This document shows, in pieces, positions 9,271-32,303 of a stretch of 64,000 bases of DNA. Under the pieces are notes generated by a model that saw only the letters and a list, made by a program, of their open reading frames with translations, was not told the DNA's origin and did no database searches. Each line of letters opens with the position of its first letter. Positions within the stretch are counted from its first letter, which is position 1. The translations under genes and the position numbers were made by a program. The DNA is from Candidatus Marinacidobacterales bacterium. Its GTDB lineage: Bacteria > Acidobacteriota > Vicinamibacteria > Marinacidobacterales > DATDRI01. Location of the stretch: NCBI GenBank assembly GCA_965219415.1, contig CBDCNP010000002.1, positions 5,568,001-5,632,000 of the forward strand. The letters are read 5' to 3'.

Positions 9271-10469
9271 GGTGCTTCCGCCATCAAGTGTTGCTACGCG
9301 GCTGCGGGCAGTGGTACAGGTGCGGAAGAGAGCGGGTTGCGCGCCCCAGTGAGCAGGAAAACCTCGATCCGCGACCACAAAGGAATCGTCGTCGCCAAGA
9401 AGATGTCTCGAAAGGTGAGCCGTCGCGTGGTGAGACCGGCCTGCATAGCCGGAGTTCGGATCTCACGTCCGAACTTCAGAGCTCCGTGCGGTCGGACGAA
9501 GTTGTAATAGCAACGGAGCAACTCCAGGTGCTCATCGAGCCTCTCCGTCGAGCGAGCGTGGGAAAGCGTTCGTCTCGAAAGGTATGCCGAGCTTTGCCGG
9601 ATGGTCAGATTCAACCGCTCGATGAATGACGTGTTCAATGTTGAGGAGTCCTCGGAGTTATTGAGCGCGTCATCAAATCGCCACGCGGCTCCGTGCAGCG
9701 CTCTGCGTTCGACCTTGATGATACGATCGTTCCTGCGCGTTTTGAGGACTTGGCCGTAGAGACACGCTGGCCCGAAGAAGCGACGGATGACCTTCTGGTA
9801 GAATTCGAATCCATCCGTAACGATCAAGGGAAGACCCTCGAAATTCATCCGCCTCGAAAGGTCGTGAAACAGAGCGTGAGTGTTCCGGTAGCTTCGCCTT
9901 CCCGTCACCGTCGATGGCCAGAGCCGAGACCAGACCTCGATCGTAACGAAGACCCAACTCGGCGTCTTCTTGTTGCCCGCGAACGTGCGAATCTCGTCGG
10001 CTTGAAGCTCTTCGGCAGCGAAGCCAGCGATCCTTGTGTGGTTGAATCGACGACACACTTGGGCTGCCTTCTCAAGCCAGCGGGCGACGGTGTTCCAGGC
10101 AATCCCTTCGATCCGGGAAATCGCGGAAATGCTGACACCCTCGACTCTGAGAGCGATGACCCCGTCGAAAGTAGCTCTTCGATGTTGGAGACGGTAGTAG
10201 GGCGTGCCTTTCGTCGAGGAGAACGTCTTTCCGCACTCGCCGCACCGGTATCGACGGCGTTTCCCAGACTTGGTTCGGTAGAATCCGTGGCGAACGATGT
10301 TTCCGGAACTGACTTTGCCCCGCAACGCACATGCGGGATTGAGACATCTGCTATTCTTCACTTCGGATTGCCCTTACGATGAGAGAACTGTGTCTTCGGA
10401 ATTCTGGCTCAAACTCTAGCACGCGAGCGGGTTACGCGGCGGCCACCAACACTTGATGGCGGAAGCACC
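9271..10469 (-). mobile_element. IS1-family element, intact; transposase 9294-10361
   Basis: perfect 23-bp TIR GGTGCTTCCGCCATCAAGTGTTG; zinc ribbon CLNPAC..CGEC, HTH, ADE/VTDG/IERLN DDE, YNFVRPH, TPAMQAGL; no target duplication. Confidence 0.9.
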
Positions 10470-15963: not shown

Positions 15964-17164
15964 GGTGCTTCCGCCATCAAGTGTTGCTACGCGGCTGCGG
16001 GCAGTGGTACAGGTGCGGAAGAGAGCGGGTTGCGCGCCCCAGTGAGCAGGAAAACCTCGATCCGCAACCACAAAGGAATCGTCGTCGCCAAGAAGATGTC
16101 TCGAAAGGTGAGCCGTCGCGTGGTGAGACCGGCTTGCATAGCCGGAGTTCGGATCTCACGTCCGAACTTCAGAGCTCCGTGCGGTCGGACGAAGTTGTAA
16201 TAGCAACGGAGCAACTCCAGGTGCTCATCGAGCCTCTCCGTCGAGCGAGCGTGGGAAAGTGTTCGTCTTGAAAGGTATGCCGAGCTTTGCCGGATGGTCA
16301 GATTCAACCGCTCGATGAACGAGGTGTTCAATGTCGAGGAGTCCTCGGAGTTATTGAGCGCGTCTTCGAATCGCCACGCGGCTCCGTGCAGCGCTCTCCG
16401 TTCGACCTTGATGATACGATCGTTCCTGCGCGTCTTGAGGACCTGGCCGTAAAGACACGCTGGACCGAAGAAGCGACGGGTTGACCTTCTGGTAGAATTC
16501 GAATCCATCCGTGACGATCAGGGGAAGACATCCGAAATTCATCCGCTTCGAAAGGTCGCGAAACAGAGCGTGAGTGTTCCGGTAGCTTCGCCTTCCCGTC
16601 ACCGTCGATGGCCAGAGCCGAGACCAGACTTCGATTGTAACGAAGACCCAACTCGGTGTCTTCTTGTTGCCCGCGAACGTGCGAATCTCGTCGGCTTGAA
16701 GCTCTTCGGCAGCGAAGCCAGCGATCCTTGTGTGGTTGAATCGACGACACACTTGGGCTGCCTTCTCGAGCCAGCGGGCGACGGTGTTCCAGGCAATCCC
16801 TTTGGTCCGGGAAATCGAGGAAATGCTGACACCCTCGACTCTGAGAGCGGTGACCCCATCGAAAGTAGCTCTTCGATGTTGGAGACGGTAGTAGGGCGTG
16901 CCTTTCGTCGAGGAGAACGTCTTTCCGCACTCGCCGCACCGGTATCGACGGAGTTTCCCGGACCTCGTTCTGTAGAATCCGTTGTGAATAATGCTTCTGG
17001 AACCGACTGTTCCATACGACGAACATGCGGGATTGAGGCATCTGCGATTCTTCACTTCGGCTCGGCCCTGACGATGAGAGAACTGTGTCTTCGGAATTCT
17101 GGTTCAAACTCTAGCACGCAGACCGGTTAGGGGCTGGCCGCCAACACTTAATTGCGGAAGCACC
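15964..17164 (-). mobile_element. IS1-family element, transposase frameshifted near 16480
   Basis: both TIRs present; ORFs 16351-17055 and 15987-16508 are the two halves. Confidence 0.9.
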
Positions 17165-26483: not shown

Positions 26484-26612
26484 CGTCGTGTCCAAAAACA
26501 CAAACGCGTTGCCCAGCCCTTGATGGTTGTGCTCTCCACGATAATGATAGATGAACTCGGCGACGGCCCGTCGCGCGGGTCTTAGAGTTCGTTTGTATTT
26601 TTGGACACGACG
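26484..26612. mobile_element. ~128-bp MITE with type D TIRs
   Basis: CGTCGTGTCCAAAAACACAAACG...CGTTTGTATTTTTGGACACGACG; inverted copy at 32176-32303. Confidence 0.8.
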
Positions 26613-26615
26613 CGG

Positions 26616-27093
26616 TCAATGCACTTTGTATTTCGGCGGATCGGGCTCGAAGCTCTCGGGTCGGCTGTCCACCACCGGGCCCGAGTCGGCCTCGAATCCC
26701 ATCCCGGAGACGTGCACGTGCAATCGATTTTCTTCGACCGCTTTACGGAAGCGCGCCAGCAAGGTGTCTTTGATGAGGGTTGCGGAAGCCGGGCACGAGC
26801 AACGAGAAGCCGAATGCGTCGGTGAAGATCCCCGGTGTCATCAGCAGTGCGCCCGCGACGAGGATCATGACGCCGTCCGCAAGCGAGCCTGCGGGGACCT
26901 CGCCACGGGCCATCTGCTTCTGAGCGCGGGTCAAAACCGAGAGACCTTGCCGCCGTGCCAGATACGCACCCACGATGCCGGTGAAGACGATCAAGGCGAG
27001 CGTCAGCCACGTACCGAGATAGATTCCCGCTTGGATGAGAAGAGCGAGCTCCGCGGCGGGGACGATGACGAACAGCAAAAGAAGCTTTCCCAT
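26616..27093 (-). CDS. fxsA: FxsA family membrane protein, frameshift near 26780
   Basis: LFVIVPAAEL...GAYLARRQG...GALLMTPGIFTDAFG. Confidence 0.85.
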
Positions 27094-27410
27094 ACCGTCA
27101 TTATAGGAACGTTTTCCGGCCGCCATTGTAAAAAAGAGCTACAGATGGATAACTCTTTGCAAAGTCTACGGTTTGACACCGGCGTCCGCAGCCAACGATG
27201 CGGATGGTGGAACCACGATGTTGGCGAGCTACTTGTGCCTTCTATTTATTTATCCGCGCGCACCAAACTTGATTAATCTCCGGTCTGCCAGCACCATGCT
27301 GCCTTGGTGGGTGCTTCCGCCATCAAGTGATGGAATGGACTCCTCCACTGACATAGACGGCATCGATGTGCCAAAGTCAGTCGAATACGCATCGAAAAGG
27401 AGGAGTCCGA

Positions 27411-28442
27411 ATGAAAGATACGACAATCGCTGTGGATCTTGCAAAGAACGTCTTCGAGATTGCCATCTCGGGAGAAGCGGGGAAGGTGTCCAAGCAACTC
27501 CGTGTGAGTCGACCCAAATTGGTGTCGTTCTTTGCCAAACAGAGCGCTGCCACCGTGCTTCTCGAAGCCTGCGGCTCGGCTCACTTCTGGGCAAGGACGT
27601 TCCGAAGGTTGGGACACGACGTCGTCCTGCTCCCACCTCACCTCGTGAGGCCGTATCGACGCGGGAGCAAGAACGACCGCGCCGACACGAAGGCGTTGCT
27701 CGAGGCCTACAGGAACGAGGAGCTTCTTCCCGTACCCATCAAGTCCGTGCACCAGCACACCCTCGCTGCGCTCCATCGCCTGCGCTCAGGATGGCTCTCC
27801 ACACGGACCGCACGCATCAATGCCGTACGCGGGCTCCTGCGCGAACTCGGATTCATCATCCCAAAGGGCGCTCACTTCGTCGTGCCCGCCCTCTTCGAAC
27901 TCGTCGAAGACGCTGATTCTGATTTGCCCGACGTGCTCCGTTCGCATCTCCGTGATGCCTGCTCCGAGATTCGAGAACTCAAGGACAAGTGCGCTAGCAT
28001 CGAGCACGAGCTCAAGGCGCTCACCAAGCAGCTTCCTGAAGTCCAACGACTTCTCGCCATTCCCGGCATCGGACTTCTGGCCGCGACCGCCATCGTGGGC
28101 TTCGTCGGCGATCTTCGCCGCTTCCCATCGGGGCGCCGCTTCTCGAGCTACCTCGGCCTAGTTCCCAAGGAAAACTCCAGTGGCGACATTCGCCGCCTCG
28201 GACGCATCACCAAGCGTGGCGACTCCTACCTCCGTATGCTCCTCACCCAGGGCGGGCGCGCCGTGCTCCGCGCGGCGAACGTCAGCAAGAGCCCGCCCGA
28301 CAAGCTCCGCGCCTGGGCTCGGAAGGTCCACCGCTCGCGGGGACACAACAAGGCCGTGATTGCTGTCGCCAACAAACTCGCCCGGATCGTCTGGGCCGTC
28401 TCCACCCGCGAGAGTGAATTCCAGTCGCCGGTGGCCGCTTAG
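27411..28442 (+). CDS. IS110/IS1111 DEDD recombinase
   Basis: AGGAGG RBS; IAVDLAK, LEACG, KNDRAD, IPGIG and GLVP..NSSG motifs. Confidence 0.95.
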   Translation: MKDTTIAVDLAKNVFEIAISGEAGKVSKQLRVSRPKLVSFFAKQSAATVLLEACGSAHFWARTFRRLGHDVVLLPPHLVRPYRRGSKNDRADTKALLEAYRNEELLPVPIKSVHQHTLAALHRLRSGWLSTRTARINAVRGLLRELGFIIPKGAHFVVPALFELVEDADSDLPDVLRSHLRDACSEIRELKDKCASIEHELKALTKQLPEVQRLLAIPGIGLLAATAIVGFVGDLRRFPSGRRFSSYLGLVPKENSSGDIRRLGRITKRGDSYLRMLLTQGGRAVLRAANVSKSPPDKLRAWARKVHRSRGHNKAVIAVANKLARIVWAVSTRESEFQSPVAA

Positions 28443-28499
28443 ATTTAGAGGCTCCACTTTCGTGTTTTCCTTTTTCCCTTCCAAAAGAGGCTGCGACGA

Positions 28500-28680
28500 T
28501 ACCCATCCAACTGATGGCGTACCGGTCGGACCGGCGCGGGGTCAAGCCAATAGCAACACTGGCCCTAAGAGGTCGTTCAAAGTGATTGGCTCCTCGCGCG
28601 CGGATTTTCCATCATGGCCCGGAGCACCCAAGACGCTCCTCACTGAGGCCGAAGATACGTTTGCAGTCTGACCCACTCGT
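28500..28680 (+). ncRNA. predicted bridge/seekRNA of IS1111 copy 1
   Basis: two stem-bounded internal loops carrying target matches (TAGCAACACT, AAGTG) and donor matches (TTCCATCAT, AGATA); RNA ends approximate. Confidence 0.75.
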
Positions 28681-28772
28681 CACGACGCGATGGATGCGCA
28701 GCTTCGATGGAAGATTTATTAAGAAAGGGGCGTGACTAGAAAGAAAGGGGCTTGACTAGAGGAGTCCAGATA

Positions 28773-28995
28773 TGTTGCTACGCGGCTGCGGGCAGTGGTT
28801 CAGGTGCGGAAGAGAGCGAGTTACGCGCCCCAGTGAGCACGCAAAGCACGCAAACCTCGATCTGCGACCACAAAGGCATCGTCGTCGCCAAGAAGATGTC
28901 TCGAAAGGTGAGCCGTCGCGTCGTCAGACCAGCCTGCATAGCCGGAGTTCGGATCTCACGTCCGAACTTCAGAGCTCCGTGCGGTCGGACGAAGT
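28773..28995 (-). pseudogene. IS1-family 3' fragment
   Basis: homologous to 9289-9502; cut by the MITE at 28996. Confidence 0.85.
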
Positions 28996-29161
28996 GGTGC
29001 TTGCGCTGTTTACTGTTGGTGATGTGTACGCATCCCTTTGCAAAAGAGGCGCTTACGCTCCATTTAGCGCGCAGCGGAGGTCACGAGCGCTATTTTGGCT
29101 GTAATCTAATGCACCGTAAAGTCTTAGCGTCATCTCACCAACACTTAATGGCGGAAGCATC
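28996..29161 (+). repeat. ~165-bp IS1-type MITE
   Basis: same family as 17204-17369. Confidence 0.9.
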
Positions 29162-29204
29162 GATTTATGGGCTATTTCAAAAGGGCTGAGTTTTGGCACA
29201 GGAC

Positions 29205-30007
29205 GCCGTCGCCCGCTGGCTCGAGAAGGCAGCCCAAGTGTGTCGTCGATTCAATCACAGAAGGATCGCTGGCTTCGCTGCCGAAGAGCTTCAAGCCGAC
29301 GAGATTCGCACGTTCGCGGGCAACAAGAAGACACCGAGTTGGGTCTTCGTTACGATCGAGGTCTGGTCTCGGCTCTGGCCATCGACGGTGACGGGAAGGC
29401 GAAGCTACCGGAACACTCACGCTCTGTTTCGCGACCTTTCGAGACGGATGAATTTCGAGCGTCTTCCCTTGATCGTCACGGATGGATTCGAATTCTACCA
29501 GAAGGTCATCCGTCGCTTCTTCGGGCCAGCGTGCCTCTACGGCCAGGTCCTCAAAACGCGCAGGAACGATCGCATCATCAAGGTCGAACGGAGAGCGCTG
29601 CACGGAGCCGCGTGGCGATTCGAAGACGCGCTCAATAACTCCGAGGACTCCTCGACATTGAACACGTCGTTCATCGAGCGGTTGAATCTGACCATCCGGC
29701 AAAGCTCGGCATACCTTTCGAGACGAACACTTTCCCACGCTCGCTCGACGGAGAGGCTCGATGAGCACCTGGAGTTGTTCCGTTGCTATTACAACTTCGT
29801 CCGACCGCACGGAGCTCTGAAGTTCGGACGTGAGATCCGAACTCCGGCTATGCAAGCCGGTCTGACCACGCGACGGCTCACCTTGCGAGACATCTTCTTG
29901 GCGACGACGATTCCTTTGTGGTCGCGGATCGAGGTTTTCCTGCTCACTGGGGCGCGCAACCCGGTCTCTTCCGCACCTGTACCACTGCCCGCAGCCGCGT
30001 AGCAACA
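29205..30007 (+). pseudogene. IS1-family element, 5'-truncated by a type B end (29162-29204)
   Basis: VARWLEKAA...PVPLPAAA*. Confidence 0.9.
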
Positions 30008-31450
30008 TATCTGGACTCCTCTAGTCAAGCCCCTTTCTTTCTAGTCACGCCCCTTTCTTAATAAATCTTCCATCGAAGCTGCGCATCCATCGCGTCGTGA
30101 CGAGTGGGTCAGACTGCAAACGTATCTTCGGCCTCAGTGAGGAGCGTCTTGGGTGCTCCGGGCCATGATGGAAAATCCGCGCGCGAGGAGCCAATCACTT
30201 TGAACGACCTCTTAGGGCCAGTGTTGCTATTGGCTTGACCCCGCGCCGGTCCGACCGGTACGCCATCAGTTGGATGGGTATCGTCGCAGCCTCTTTTGGA
30301 AGGGAAAAAGGAAAACACGAAAGTGGAGCCTCTAAATCTAAGCGGCCACCGGCGACTGGAATTCACTCTCGCGGGTGGAGACGGCCCAGACGATCCGGGC
30401 GAGTTTGTTGGCGACAGCAATCACGGCCTTGTTGTGTCCCCGCGAGCGGTGGACCTTCCGAGCCCAGGCGCGGAGCTTGTCGGGCGGGCTCTTGCTGACG
30501 TTCGCCGCGCGGAGCACGGCGCGCCCGCCCTGGGTGAGGAGCATACGGAGGTAGGAGTCGCCACGCTTGGTGATGCGTCCGAGGCGGCGAATGTCGCCAC
30601 TGGAGTTTTCCTTGGGAACTAGGCCGAGGTAGCTCGAGAAGCGGCGCCCCGATGGGAAGCGGCGAAGATCGCCGACGAAGCCCACGATGGCGGTCGCGGC
30701 CAGAAGTCCGATGCCGGGAATGGCGAGAAGTCGTTGGACTTCAGGAAGCTGCTTGGTGAGCGCCTTGAGCTCGTGCTCGATGCTAGCGCACTTGTCCTTG
30801 AGTTCTCGAATCTCGGAGCAGGCATCACGGAGATGCGAACGGAGCACGTCGGGCAAATCAGAATCAGCGTCTTCGACGAGTTCGAAGAGGGCGGGCACGA
30901 CGAAGTGAGCGCCCTTTGGGATGATGAATCCGAGTTCGCGCAGGAGCCCGCGTACGGCATTGATGCGTGCGGTCCGTGTGGAGAGCCATCCTGAGCGCAG
31001 GCGATGGAGCGCAGCGAGGGTGTGCTGGTGCACGGACTTGATGGGTACGGGAAGAAGCTCCTCGTTCCTGTAGGCCTCGAGCAACGCCTTCGTGTCGGCG
31101 CGGTCGTTCTTGCTCCCGCGTCGATACGGCCTCACGAGGTGAGGTGGGAGCAGGACGACGTCGTGTCCCAACCTTCGGAACGTCCTTGCCCAGAAGTGAG
31201 CCGAGCCGCAGGCTTCGAGAAGCACGGTGGCAGCGCTCTGTTTGGCAAAGAACGACACCAATTTGGGTCGACTCACACGGAGTTGCTTGGACACCTTCCC
31301 CGCTTCTCCCGAGATGGCAATCTCGAAGACGTTCTTTGCAAGATCCACAGCGATTGTCGTATCTTTCATTTGGACTCCTCCTTTTCGATGCGTATTCGAC
31401 TGACTTTGGCACATCGATGCCGTCTATGTCAGTGGAGGAGTCCATTCCAT
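30006..31450 (-). mobile_element. IS1111-type element copy 2 (transposase 30338-31369; predicted guide RNA ~30100-30280) in the IS1 right TIR
   Basis: near-identical inverted copy of 27330-28774; outer TIR half CACTTGATGGCGGAAGCACC at 31451-31470. Confidence 0.92.
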
Positions 31451-31589
31451 CACTTGATGGCGGAAGCACCGGTCTATTTCTAAAGGGCCGAGTTTTGGCA
31501 CAGGACGGGGGATCTCGGAGGATCCAGTCTCGGAAATAGCACCGCCGCGCCCAGCTCTCGACATGCCCGGGAGGTGCTACAATGTGGGC

Positions 31590-31874
31590 ATGTTGAAGGT
31601 TCGCGAAGTTCGAGCGCTGCCCAAATACCAGATTTGGGTGCGTTACGAGGATGGCACCGAAGGCGAGGTGGACCTCATTCCCTTCGTCGGCAAGGGCATA
31701 TTCTCGTCGTGGGGTGATCCTGCATTCTTCGAGACCGTCCACGTGAGCCCCCACGGAAGCATCGCGTGGAACAAAGACATCGAGCTATGCCCGGACAGCA
31801 TCTACCTCGAGCTAACCGGAAAGAAGCCGGAGGAGGTTTTCCCTCGAATATCGGTCGCCGATGTAGATGCCTGA
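31590..31874 (+). CDS. DUF2442 family protein (putative antitoxin)
   Basis: VRALPKYQIWVRYEDGTEGEVDL...SIAWNKDIELCPDSIY. Confidence 0.8.
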   Translation: MLKVREVRALPKYQIWVRYEDGTEGEVDLIPFVGKGIFSSWGDPAFFETVHVSPHGSIAWNKDIELCPDSIYLELTGKKPEEVFPRISVADVDA

Positions 31875-32127
31875 GCTAAGCCGGTTTTATGGCATCGTCG
31901 TGCGGATGTTCTTCAACGATCATGCCCCTCCTCATTTCCATGCGTATTACGGGTCCGACGAGGCTCTCTTTGCCATCGAGACGCTATCGCTGACGGCAGG
32001 CCGCCTTCCCGCTCGCGCGACCGGTCTCGTTGTGGAGTGGGCCTCTCAACATCAGGATGAGCTCATGAGAGCTTGGAAGCGAGCCCGAAGTTTCGAGGCT
32101 CCCGGTCGGATCGATCCACTCCCTTAG
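31867..32127 (+). CDS. DUF4160 family protein (putative toxin)
   Basis: MPELSRFYGIVVRMFFNDHAPPHFHAYY...RIDPLP. Confidence 0.85.
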   Translation: MPELSRFYGIVVRMFFNDHAPPHFHAYYGSDEALFAIETLSLTAGRLPARATGLVVEWASQHQDELMRAWKRARSFEAPGRIDPLP

Positions 32128-32175
32128 GCGCCCGCTACATTTTCGCTGCCGGCCGCACAATCGTTTGAGTGAGCG

Positions 32176-32303
32176 CGTCGTGTCAAAAAACACGAACGAA
32201 CTCTAAGATCCTCGCGCCGGGCCGTCGCCGAGTTCATCTCTCATTATCAAGAAGAGCACGACCATCAAGGGCTTGCAACGCATTTGTATTTTTGGACACG
32301 ACG
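32176..32303. mobile_element. type D MITE, copy 2
   Basis: inverted homolog of 26484-26612. Confidence 0.8.

What the first reader, a model, noticed from the sequence alone, without database searches (positions are those of the whole stretch)
28500..28680. Readable bridge/seekRNA with loops matching the target TIR and the donor junction
Seen, loop 1: stems AGCCAAT/ATTGGCT (28545-51/28585-91) and GGCC/GGTC (28561-64/28571-74) bound (T)AGCAACACT, the exact reverse complement of target AGTGTTGCTA, and TTCAAAGTG, a partial match to the top strand ATCAAGTG. Seen, loop 2: stems GCGGAT/GTTTGC (28600-05/28659-64) and GGCC/GGCC bound TTCCATCAT (28607-15), the exact reverse complement of the circle junction ATGATGGAA, and GAAGATAC, which resembles junction AGATATG. 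The same RNA occurs in copy 2 (guide at 30220-30229). Known: IS1111 elements encode their guide RNA downstream of the transposase. Inference: a complete RNA-guided recombinase with a TG core that could be reprogrammed.
Basis: partly seen in the sequence, partly recalled or inferred. Interest (0 to 1): 0.88.

Follow-up and report, generated by a model that had tools for sequence, protein, structure and literature searches.

The report
IS1111-type insertion sequence guide RNA
The flagged stretch is the guide ("bridge" or "seek") RNA of a multi-copy IS1111-type insertion sequence that aims itself at the end of another insertion sequence; the reading is correct, but this kind of system was described in 2024.

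Summary
The flagged stretch lies in the 332-nt non-coding right end of a 1445-bp IS110-family element of the IS1111 group (window 27330-28774). A second, inverted copy lies at 30006-31450. The genome holds 26 full-length copies.

Loop 1 is complementary over 10 nt to the empty target. Loop 2 is complementary over 9 nt to the inferred circle junction. Both matches together arose in 1 of 5000 shuffles of the non-coding end.

[quoted passage not shown] On the fitted alignment, 25 of 34 base pairs show compensatory changes. The target loop co-varies with the flanking DNA across 20 distinct guides, and 0 of 20000 permutations reach the observed total.

The target is one of the two unlike terminal inverted repeats of a 1.2-kb IS1-like element, cut 20 bp from its tip.

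Transcription, protein binding and reprogramming are not shown. This is a new member of a known kind, and interest is moderate to low.

The parts
27330..28774 (+). IS1111-group insertion sequence, copy 1 (1445 bp; the TG core makes the ends ambiguous by 2 bp)
   Evidence: 26 full-length copies in the genome end at the same bases. The empty site occurs unbroken in the genome.
27310..27329 (+). Left half of the target: the outer 20 nt of the IS1-like terminal inverted repeat, ending in the TG core (27328-29)
   Evidence: Near-identical in all 26 left flanks (2 of 26 carry one substitution), with unique DNA beyond it.
28775..28783 (+). Right half of the target (TTGCTACGC), continuing into the interior of the IS1-like element
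   Evidence: 25 of 26 right flanks start TTGCTA.
27337..27345 (+). Left subterminal inverted repeat GGACTCCTC, 7 nt from the left end
   Evidence: the reverse complement stands at 28759-67.
27411..28442 (+). Transposase/recombinase gene: 343 aa, preceded by a Shine-Dalgarno-like AAGGAGG, and containing GLVPKENSSG
   Evidence: NF033542 at 302.9 bits. PF01548 and PF02371. C-terminal domain aligns to IS621 and ISCro4 chains.
28534..28664 (+). Two-loop guide RNA gene (the conserved block runs 28525-28675)
   Evidence: Model R1 hits in 30 of 30 loci. 25 of 34 pairs show compensatory change. A de novo consensus fold recovers the helices.
28551..28560 (+). [quoted passage not shown]
   Evidence: 10 of 10 match to the empty site. 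Co-varies with right flanks.
28575..28584 (+). Target loop, 3' guide GTTCAAAGTG: same sense as the left flank, so it would pair with the bottom strand
   Evidence: The last 5 nt match ...AAGTG, and 4 more match after a 1-nt bulge. Cognate mean 5.64 against non-cognate 3.71 over 11 elements.
28606..28615 (+). Donor loop, 5' guide TTTCCATCAT: complementary to the top strand of the circle junction (1 nt + TG + ATGGAA)
   Evidence: 9 of 10. Covariation with the left end is weak.
28651..28659 (+). Donor loop, 3' guide GAAGATAC(G): same sense as the right end ...CCAGATATG
   Evidence: AGATA and G match; C stands where the site has T. The 92-94% variant of the element has the matching T.
28721..28760 (+). 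Two tandem 20-nt repeats in the right end; the second holds the -35-like hexamer TTGACT (28752-57)
   Evidence: Relatives have one repeat. Junction promoter candidate.
28759..28767 (+). Right subterminal inverted repeat GAGGAGTCC, 7 nt from the right end
30006..31450 (-). IS copy 2, inverted; one difference from copy 1 over the 1444 nt aligned. Its guide RNA lies at 30116-30246 (-)
   Evidence: guide at 30220-29.
9271..9299 (+). An unoccupied copy of the target, at the end of a 1.2-kb IS1-like element (9271-10469)

Best explanation
Window 28534-28664 encodes the bispecific guide RNA (bridge RNA, or long seekRNA) of an IS1111-group insertion sequence.

Proposed mechanism.
1. The element leaves as a circle in which the right end joins the left end through a TG core.
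2. The join would bring a -35-like TTGACT in the right end 18 nt from TGnTGGAAT at the left end. This hybrid promoter would drive the transposase gene and the RNA downstream of it.
3. The RNA folds into two internal loops.
4. In each loop the 5' side pairs with the top strand (core plus right half), and the 3' side pairs with the bottom strand (left half plus core).
5. Loop 1 reads the terminal inverted repeat of an IS1-like element. Loop 2 reads the circle junction.
6. The DEDD/serine recombinase exchanges strands at TG. This places the element 20 bp inside that repeat, always in one orientation.

Shown here by computation: the complementarities, the structure, its covariation, guide-to-flank covariation, homology to the RNA region of named IS1111 members, and site choice within the genome.

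Inferred only: transcription, RNA processing, protein binding, catalysis and the circle.
For: Family.
- NF033542 at 302.9 bits; PF01548 and PF02371.
- 343 aa, GLVPKENSSG motif, 9-bp subterminal repeats 7 nt from each end, 81-nt left and 332-nt right non-coding ends.
- These fit the IS1111 features listed in PMC11187229, section 6.

Structure.
- Model R1 finds a full-length match (E <= 0.0012) in all 30 loci searched. Twenty-eight of these are relatives at 30-62% protein identity. In the 27 checked, the match is on the transposase strand.
- On that model-fitted alignment, 91.4% of cells pair, against 29-40% when partners are slid. 25 of 34 pairs change on both sides.
- RNAalifold on an unfitted MAFFT alignment of 16 sequences recovers the same six helices.

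Guides.
- Across 20 distinct 5' target guides, the cognate right junction matches 7.8 of about 10 positions, against 4.35 (sd 1.46) for non-cognate pairs.
- 0 of 20000 permutations reach the observed total.
- The cognate flank is best or joint best for 18 of 20 guides.

Natural retargeting. L017 is 91% identical in DNA. It carries TAACAATCGT and sits at ...CCAGTG | ATTGTTATCC.

Known members.
- R1 scores 63.2 bits in ISPa25, 34.3 in IS5075 and 31.3 in a Klebsiella IS110-family element, in each case downstream of the gene.
- By eye, their loop-1 5' sides match their own right junctions at 8-9 of 10 positions.

Site choice.
- 25 of 26 full copies sit in the exact 14-mer class of repeat ends. That class has 76 free sites.
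- 1 of 26 sits in the other classes, which have 370 free sites.
- Fisher p = 2.9e-17.

Activity. 16 of the 26 copies are 100% identical to copy 1.
Against: - No proof of an RNA. Rfam 15 has no matching family. No sigma-70-like promoter was found in the integrated copy.
- Contigs from RNA libraries cover parts of the element only at low depth and cannot show transcription.
- The single-sequence fold is only marginally better than shuffles (z = -1.72).
- The 3' target guide matches only 5 contiguous nt.
- The 3' donor guide has C where the site has T.
- Covariation of the donor loop with the left end is weak, because the ends are conserved: 4.07 against 3.62, with 473 of 20000 permutations reaching it.
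- Siddiquee et al. found an 82-nt RNA with the target loop alone sufficient for ISEc11 (PMC11187229, section 10), so a role for loop 2 is not established for this group.
- Copies in the site-choice count may not be independent events, because a host IS carrying the element could itself move.
- Relatives are kin, so the permutation figures overstate significance.
Confidence: 0.85

Rival explanations
1. Only the first domain (28534-28599, about 66 nt) acts as a guide, as a short seekRNA. The second domain would be a conserved scaffold or processing piece. Its match to the junction would reflect conserved end sequence and not donor recognition.
For: An 82-nt short seekRNA sufficed for ISEc11, and the role of the long form was left open (PMC11187229, sections 10 and 14). 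Here the donor loop co-varies only weakly with the left end. The 3' donor guide carries a mismatch.
Against: The two loops have the same geometry: outer stem, about 10 nt, GGCC stem, then 8-10 nt. The 5' side of loop 2 is complementary to the first 4-6 nt of the left end in 12 of 15 elements placed by the subterminal repeat alone, including one with a different end (L084, TGACA). Durrant et al. report donor-complementary loops in IS1111 members (PMC11208160, passages).
Confidence: 0.12
2. The complementarities are chance, or reflect DNA-level protein binding sites in the right end and not an RNA.
For: No direct RNA evidence. The single-sequence fold has z = -1.72.
Against: Both matches together arose in 1 of 5000 shuffles. 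Compensatory changes occur in 25 of 34 pairs. Loop sequences change together with the flanks while the stems stay. The same region is the experimentally shown RNA in other IS1111 members (PMC11187229, section 8).
Confidence: 0.02
3. The elements are recent fossils: the guide RNA is genuine in origin, but the copies no longer move.
For: No circle or transcript was seen. Several truncated copies exist, covering 1-718, 1-304 and 1-121 of the element.
Against: 16 copies are identical and 8 differ by one base. The five matches scored in the genome's own assembly have open frames with no internal stop. 76 free exact targets remain.
Confidence: 0.08

Closest known systems
ISPa25 (IS1111 group; inserts in integron attC sites according to PMC11187229, section 9)
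   Same: Closest named transposase: 45.9% identity over 99% of the protein. The first 17 nt of the left end, including the subterminal repeat, are the same. The homologous RNA lies downstream of the gene (63.2 bits).
   Different: The target loop and the target differ. The host is Pseudomonas, on plasmids and integrons, whereas this element is in an uncultured acidobacterial genome.
IS4321 / IS5075 (IS1111 group)
   Same: These also aim at the terminal inverted repeat of another mobile element (title of Partridge & Hall 2003, seen only in reference lists). R1 finds the RNA in an IS5075 copy (34.3 bits), and its loop matches its right junction at 9 of 10 positions (by eye).
   Different: Protein identity is 33%. 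Their target is the Tn21-family repeat, whereas here it is an IS1-like repeat.
ISEc11, ISKpn4, ISPa11 seekRNAs (Siddiquee et al. 2024, PMC11187229)
   Same: The RNA comes from the non-coding region downstream of the gene. The top-strand match lies 5' of the bottom-strand match. Retargeting occurs naturally between close relatives. A junction promoter is expected.
   Different: These were not compared by sequence here. Their RNAs were shown to bind the protein and to be required; here none of this is shown.
IS621 bridge RNA (IS110 group; Durrant et al. 2024, PMC11208160; structures 8wt6 etc.)
   Same: One RNA with two internal loops, the target loop before the donor loop. Each loop reads both strands across a core dinucleotide. 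The recombinase is of the DEDD plus serine type.
   Different: [quoted passage not shown] Here the RNA lies in the right end and the 5' side pairs with the top strand. The core is CT in IS621 and TG here. Only the C-terminal domain aligns by sequence (E = 9e-8).

Membership tests
IS110 family, IS1111 group | DEDD (RuvC-like) N-terminal domain plus PF02371 C-terminal domain | tested here: met
   PF01548 at 45.7 bits and PF02371 at 85.5 bits. NF033542 at 302.9 bits against a cut-off of 140.
IS110 family, IS1111 group | Transposase of 330-350 aa with a GL-P----S(t)G motif (PMC11187229, section 6) | tested here: met
   343 aa. GLVPKENSSG is seen in the alignment.
IS110 family, IS1111 group | Subterminal inverted repeats of 7-17 bp (PMC11208160 passage) | tested here: met
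   GGACTCCTC at 27337-45 and GAGGAGTCC at 28759-67: 9 bp, each 7 nt from its end.
IS110 family, IS1111 group | Long non-coding region downstream of the gene, with a short left end | tested here: met
   81 nt before the start codon and 332 nt after the stop codon.
IS110 family, IS1111 group | Insertion at one specific sequence in one orientation, with no target duplication beyond the core | tested here: met
   All 26 copies share the left flank, apart from single substitutions in two. 25 share the right flank. TG stands at both junctions and once in the empty site.
seekRNA / bridge RNA of IS1111 type | [quoted passage not shown] | tested here: met
   28551-60 is complementary to the top strand. 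28575-84 has the same sense as the top strand. The rule is from PMC11187229, section 9.
seekRNA / bridge RNA of IS1111 type | Guide loops co-vary with the insertion site among relatives | tested here: met
   20 guides: 7.8 against 4.35, with 0 of 20000 permutations reaching the total.
seekRNA / bridge RNA of IS1111 type | Sequence and structure homology to the RNA region of named IS1111 members | tested here: met
   R1 scores 63.2 bits in ISPa25 and 34.3 bits in IS5075. Not tested against ISEc11, ISKpn4 or ISPa11 themselves.
seekRNA / bridge RNA of IS1111 type | Donor loop complementary to the joined ends | tested here: inconclusive
   9 of 10 in this element. Across relatives the match is present but covariation is weak.
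seekRNA / bridge RNA of IS1111 type | The RNA is made, binds the transposase and is required for movement | not testable with these tools
   RNA-library contigs are inconclusive.
IS110 family, IS1111 group | Circular intermediate with a promoter formed at the junction | not testable with these tools
   Sequence only: TTGACT (28752), 18 nt, then TGnTGGAAT (27331), matching 9 of 12 positions.
Rfam family | Match to a curated covariance model | tested here: not met
   No relevant match in Rfam 15 at E <= 1. The library seems to hold no model for this RNA.

The most novel reading that the evidence does not exclude
The element may be a dedicated RNA-guided parasite of another transposon family.

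- Its guide is tuned to just one of the two unlike terminal repeats of an IS1-like IS and MITE family that has about 480 ends in this genome.
- It already occupies about a quarter of the exact-match ends.
- Each insertion splits the repeat 20 bp from its tip, so it may cripple the host element and shape that family's spread.
- RNA-bearing 3' modules seen as tandem arrays in sister genomes may multiply on their own and supply guides in trans, as the ssr9 module of ISPpu9 does.
Probability: 0.2. Interest if true: 0.5.

Novelty: new member of a known kind. Interest (0 to 1): 0.3.

Why it matters
This is a clean natural example of an RNA-guided recombinase from a phylum (Acidobacteriota, marine uncultured lineage) far from the enterobacterial and pseudomonad models. 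The genome offers about 26 near-identical copies, 76 free perfect targets and hundreds of near-targets. That amounts to a natural specificity experiment.

The set of relatives gathered here covers 20 different target guides on one conserved scaffold. It could help define the guide rules of the IS1111 group, for which my sequence search of solved structures found no chain. It also offers further orthologues for programmable insertion.

It does not change what is known about how such systems work.

Tried and rejected
- Rfam 15 at E <= 1 on 27000-32000 gave only two chance miRNA-like matches inside the transposase gene.
- The promoter and terminator scan of 27250-28850 found 0 promoter-like sites and 2 terminator-like sites, both on the minus strand inside the gene.
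- Public runs. Four RNA-library runs were laid, all as contigs. They give low-depth pieces over parts of the gene. One 100%-identical contig covers 28346-28497 (X3). One contig (X2) matches 28521-41 and 28645-71 with 99 other letters between. None of this shows transcription, and DNA carry-over cannot be excluded.
- An outermost helix, 28525-31 with 28665-71, has only 64% of cells paired against 22-38% in slid controls. I do not claim it.
- Donor loop against a left end placed by the subterminal repeat alone gave a weak signal.
- Rows dropped before the count. Of 27 relatives with parsed loops, 6 were dropped because the right end differed from the donor-guide prediction by more than one base (L077, L083, L085, L088, L092, L096). 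Three more were dropped as duplicates of a guide already counted (L072, L078, L089). L090 was left out earlier because its loop 1 did not align. The left-flank test used only the 11 elements with a subterminal repeat run of at least 9.
- Sequence search of solved structures found only distant C-terminal matches.
- Earlier findings of the scan were not open.
- I could not check ISfinder or the supplementary tables of Durrant et al. and Siddiquee et al. These may already list this clade or its predicted RNA.

Full report
**What is at the coordinates**

- Loop 1: AGCCAAT (28545-51) pairs with ATTGGCT (28585-91), and GGCC (28561-64) pairs with GGTC (28571-74). They enclose (T)AGCAACACT and GTTCAAAGTG.
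- Loop 2: GCGGAT (28600-05) pairs with GTTTGC (28659-64), and GGCC (28616-19) pairs with GGCC (28647-50). They enclose TTTCCATCAT and GAAGATAC.
- An inner hairpin pairs 28621-25 with 28635-39.
- A further stem, GCGCGGGG (28534-41) with CCTCGCGC (28592-99), closes the first domain.

The single-sequence fold reproduces all of this except the weak outer stem of loop 2. Its energy is only marginally better than shuffles (z = -1.72).

**The element**

The stretch lies after an ORF (27411-28442, 343 aa).
- The ORF scores 302.9 bits against NCBIfam NF033542, 'IS110 family RNA-guided transposase' (cut-off 140).
- It carries PF01548 and PF02371.
- BLAST of the element against its own genome gives 26 full-length copies. 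16 are identical to copy 1, 8 differ by one base and 2 are a little more diverged.
- There are also four near-full and three truncated copies.
- All end at the same bases.

The element is 27330-28774, 1445 bp. It has 9-bp subterminal inverted repeats (27337-45 and 28759-67), each 7 nt from its end. The leader is 81 nt and the non-coding right end is 332 nt.

A second, inverted copy lies at 30006-31450.

These are the features that Siddiquee et al. 2024 give for the IS1111 group. I read sections 6, 8, 9, 10, 13 and 14 of PMC11187229. Passages of Durrant et al. 2024 (PMC11208160) seen agree.

**The target**

- All 26 left flanks share the same 20 nt, apart from single substitutions in two, and then become unique.
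- 25 of 26 right flanks begin TTGCTA. They continue into at least three different interiors.
- The joined 29-nt site exists unbroken 58 times in the genome, for example at window 9271-9299.
- A broader search finds 446 unoccupied ends of this type and 33 occupied ones.
- Inward-facing pairs of ends cluster at about 1200 bp (34 pairs) and at 150-299 bp (26 pairs).
- The 1.2-kb units encode a protein with a sub-threshold match to IS1 transposase: NF033558 at 84.5 bits, cut-off 100. Pfam gives only weak hits.
- Their two ends are unlike. One ends ...ATCAAGTGTTGCTA, which is the target. The other ends ...ATTAAGTGTTGGCG or ...GGTG.

So 'target TIR' is correct. The element cuts one specific terminal repeat of an IS1-like IS and MITE family, 20 bp from its tip. 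TG stands at both junctions and once in the empty site, as expected of a core dinucleotide.

**Is the complementarity more than chance?**

In 5000 shuffles of the non-coding end, a 10-nt complement to the empty site arose 16 times. A 9-nt complement to the joined ends arose 46 times. Both arose together once.

Within the genome, 25 of 26 full copies occupy the exact 14-mer class, which has 76 free sites. One copy occupies the other classes, which have 370 free sites. Fisher p = 2.9e-17. The caveat is that copies might spread together with their host IS, so they may not be independent events.

**Relatives and structure**

*Loci gathered.* A scan of species genomes gave 70 loci, mostly from 'Candidatus Marinacidobacterales' MAGs at 90-98% identity. 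A whole-genome search of 401 genomes of the phylum gave matches in 32. From these I took 29 loci at 30-62% identity.

*Close variants.*
- A 92-94% variant has left end ATGGGA and donor guide TTTCCGTCAT. This still pairs if G:T and U:G wobbles are allowed. Its 3' donor guide, GTAGATAT, matches the right end perfectly.
- L017 is 91% identical. It has a different target loop (TAACAATCGT and TTTGCAGCG) and lies between ...CCAGTG and ATTGTTATCC.

It found a full-length match at E <= 0.0012 in all 30 loci searched. In the 27 loci processed further, the match is on the transposase strand. In those I checked it lies downstream of the gene.

*Covariation.*
- On the model-fitted alignment, 91.4% of cells pair, against 29-40% with slid partners.
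- 25 of 34 pairs show changes on both sides.
- Because that alignment leans towards the model, I also ran RNAalifold on a plain MAFFT alignment of 16 sequences.
- That run recovers the closing stem, both stems of loop 1, and the outer, middle and inner stems of loop 2. 15 of its 30 pairs show compensatory change.

**Guides against flanks**

I placed the right end of each relative from its own 3' donor guide, not from the target loop. I then compared the 5' target guide with the right junction.
- For 20 distinct guides the cognate score averages 7.8 of about 10. Non-cognate pairs average 4.35 (sd 1.46).
- No permutation of 20000 reaches the observed total.
- The cognate flank is best or joint best for 18 of 20 guides.
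- Nine relatives were dropped before this count. They are listed under Tried and rejected.
- The 3' target guide against the left flank, in 11 elements, gives 5.64 against 3.71, again with 0 of 20000.
- The donor loop is complementary to the left end throughout. But the ends are conserved, so covariation is weak: 4.07 against 3.62, with 473 of 20000 permutations reaching it.

Relatives are kin, so these figures overstate independence.

**Link to known elements**

- The closest named protein is the ISPa25-family transposase at 45.9% identity. IS5075 and IS4321 are at about 33%.
- The model scores 63.2 bits downstream of the ISPa25 gene, 34.3 bits in IS5075 and 31.3 bits in a Klebsiella element.
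- Read by eye, the predicted 5' target guide of each matches its own right junction at 8-9 of 10 positions.
- ISPa25 shares the first 17 nt of the left end with this element.
- In both loops the 5' side is complementary to the top strand. This is the order Siddiquee et al. report for IS1111 elements. It is the reverse of IS621, where the 5' side pairs with the bottom strand.
- By sequence, only the C-terminal domain aligns to solved IS621 and ISCro4 chains.

**What is not shown**

- Rfam has no family for this RNA.
- No promoter-like site lies in the integrated copy.
- Joining the ends would place TTGACT (28752-57) 18 nt from TGnTGGAAT (27331-36), matching 9 of 12 positions. This fits the junction-promoter idea in PMC11187229, sections 8 and 14, but it is inference.
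- RNA-library contigs are inconclusive.
- Whether loop 2 is needed is open. For ISEc11 a short RNA with the target loop alone sufficed (PMC11187229, section 10).
- Reprogrammability is untested here. L017 is a natural precedent.

**Verdict**

Both the observation and the interpretation stand. This is an apparently active IS1111-group insertion sequence with a readable two-loop guide RNA. It targets the terminal repeat of an IS1-like family. It is a new member of a kind described in 2024, not a new mechanism.

**Papers**
- PMC11187229: outline and sections 6, 8, 9, 10, 13 and 14 read.
- PMC11208160: passages only.
- PMC13626964: only hits in the reference list.
- PMC12288879: abstract and outline.
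- Partridge & Hall 2003 and Prosseda 2006: titles in reference lists only.
- Supplements were closed.

Noticed in passing
window 9271-10469, 15964-17164, 28996-29161 and genome-wide: A very large IS1-like family. About 34 units of about 1.2 kb and about 26 MITE-sized units of 150-299 bp share a roughly 20-nt terminal repeat. There are 446 free ends in the genome. The two ends of the 1.2-kb unit are unlike each other.
   Followed up: partly
L001, L009, L010, L013-L016, L026; own genome C3:3315125-3316852: Tandem arrays of 3' modules (end of the gene, guide RNA and right end) follow a full copy. The right end is joined to various internal positions of the element. 8 of the 70 loci hold two or more donor-loop motifs. 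This recalls the modular circles of ISPpu9 (PMC12288879, abstract).
   Followed up: partly
window 28721-28760: A 20-nt unit holding a -35-like hexamer is duplicated in tandem in most copies in this genome. It is single in the 98% relatives and in two copies in this genome.
   Followed up: partly
window 28775-28998 versus 29791-30005: The DNA between the two IS copies is a rearranged IS1-like element with target-type ends on both sides. Its left 224 bp are an inverted copy of its own 3' end, 99% alike next to the IS copies and 94% alike further in. A MITE then follows at 28996-29161.
   Followed up: no
guide positions 28658 and relatives' junctions: The first core position is polymorphic. The 3' donor guide has CG where the site has TG. 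In several relatives the left flank ends TG, while the right end and the guides read CG.
   Followed up: no
alignment A3, columns 94-96 with 140-142 (window about 28611-13 with 28654-56): RNAalifold pairs AUC in the 5' donor guide with GAU in the 3' donor guide. The C-G pair changes to G-U in 5 of 16 sequences. This may be a closed state of the free loop.
   Followed up: no
run X2, contig laid at 28521-41 and 28645-71: A marine-sediment RNA-library contig shares the two edges of the RNA but has 99 other letters in between. It is probably a relative with different loops.
   Followed up: no
window 26515-26618 and 32170-32273: A 104-nt inverted repeat (88% complementary) brackets the whole nest of elements at a distance of 5.5 kb. 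A 21-nt motif recurs at 26592 and 32283.
   Followed up: no
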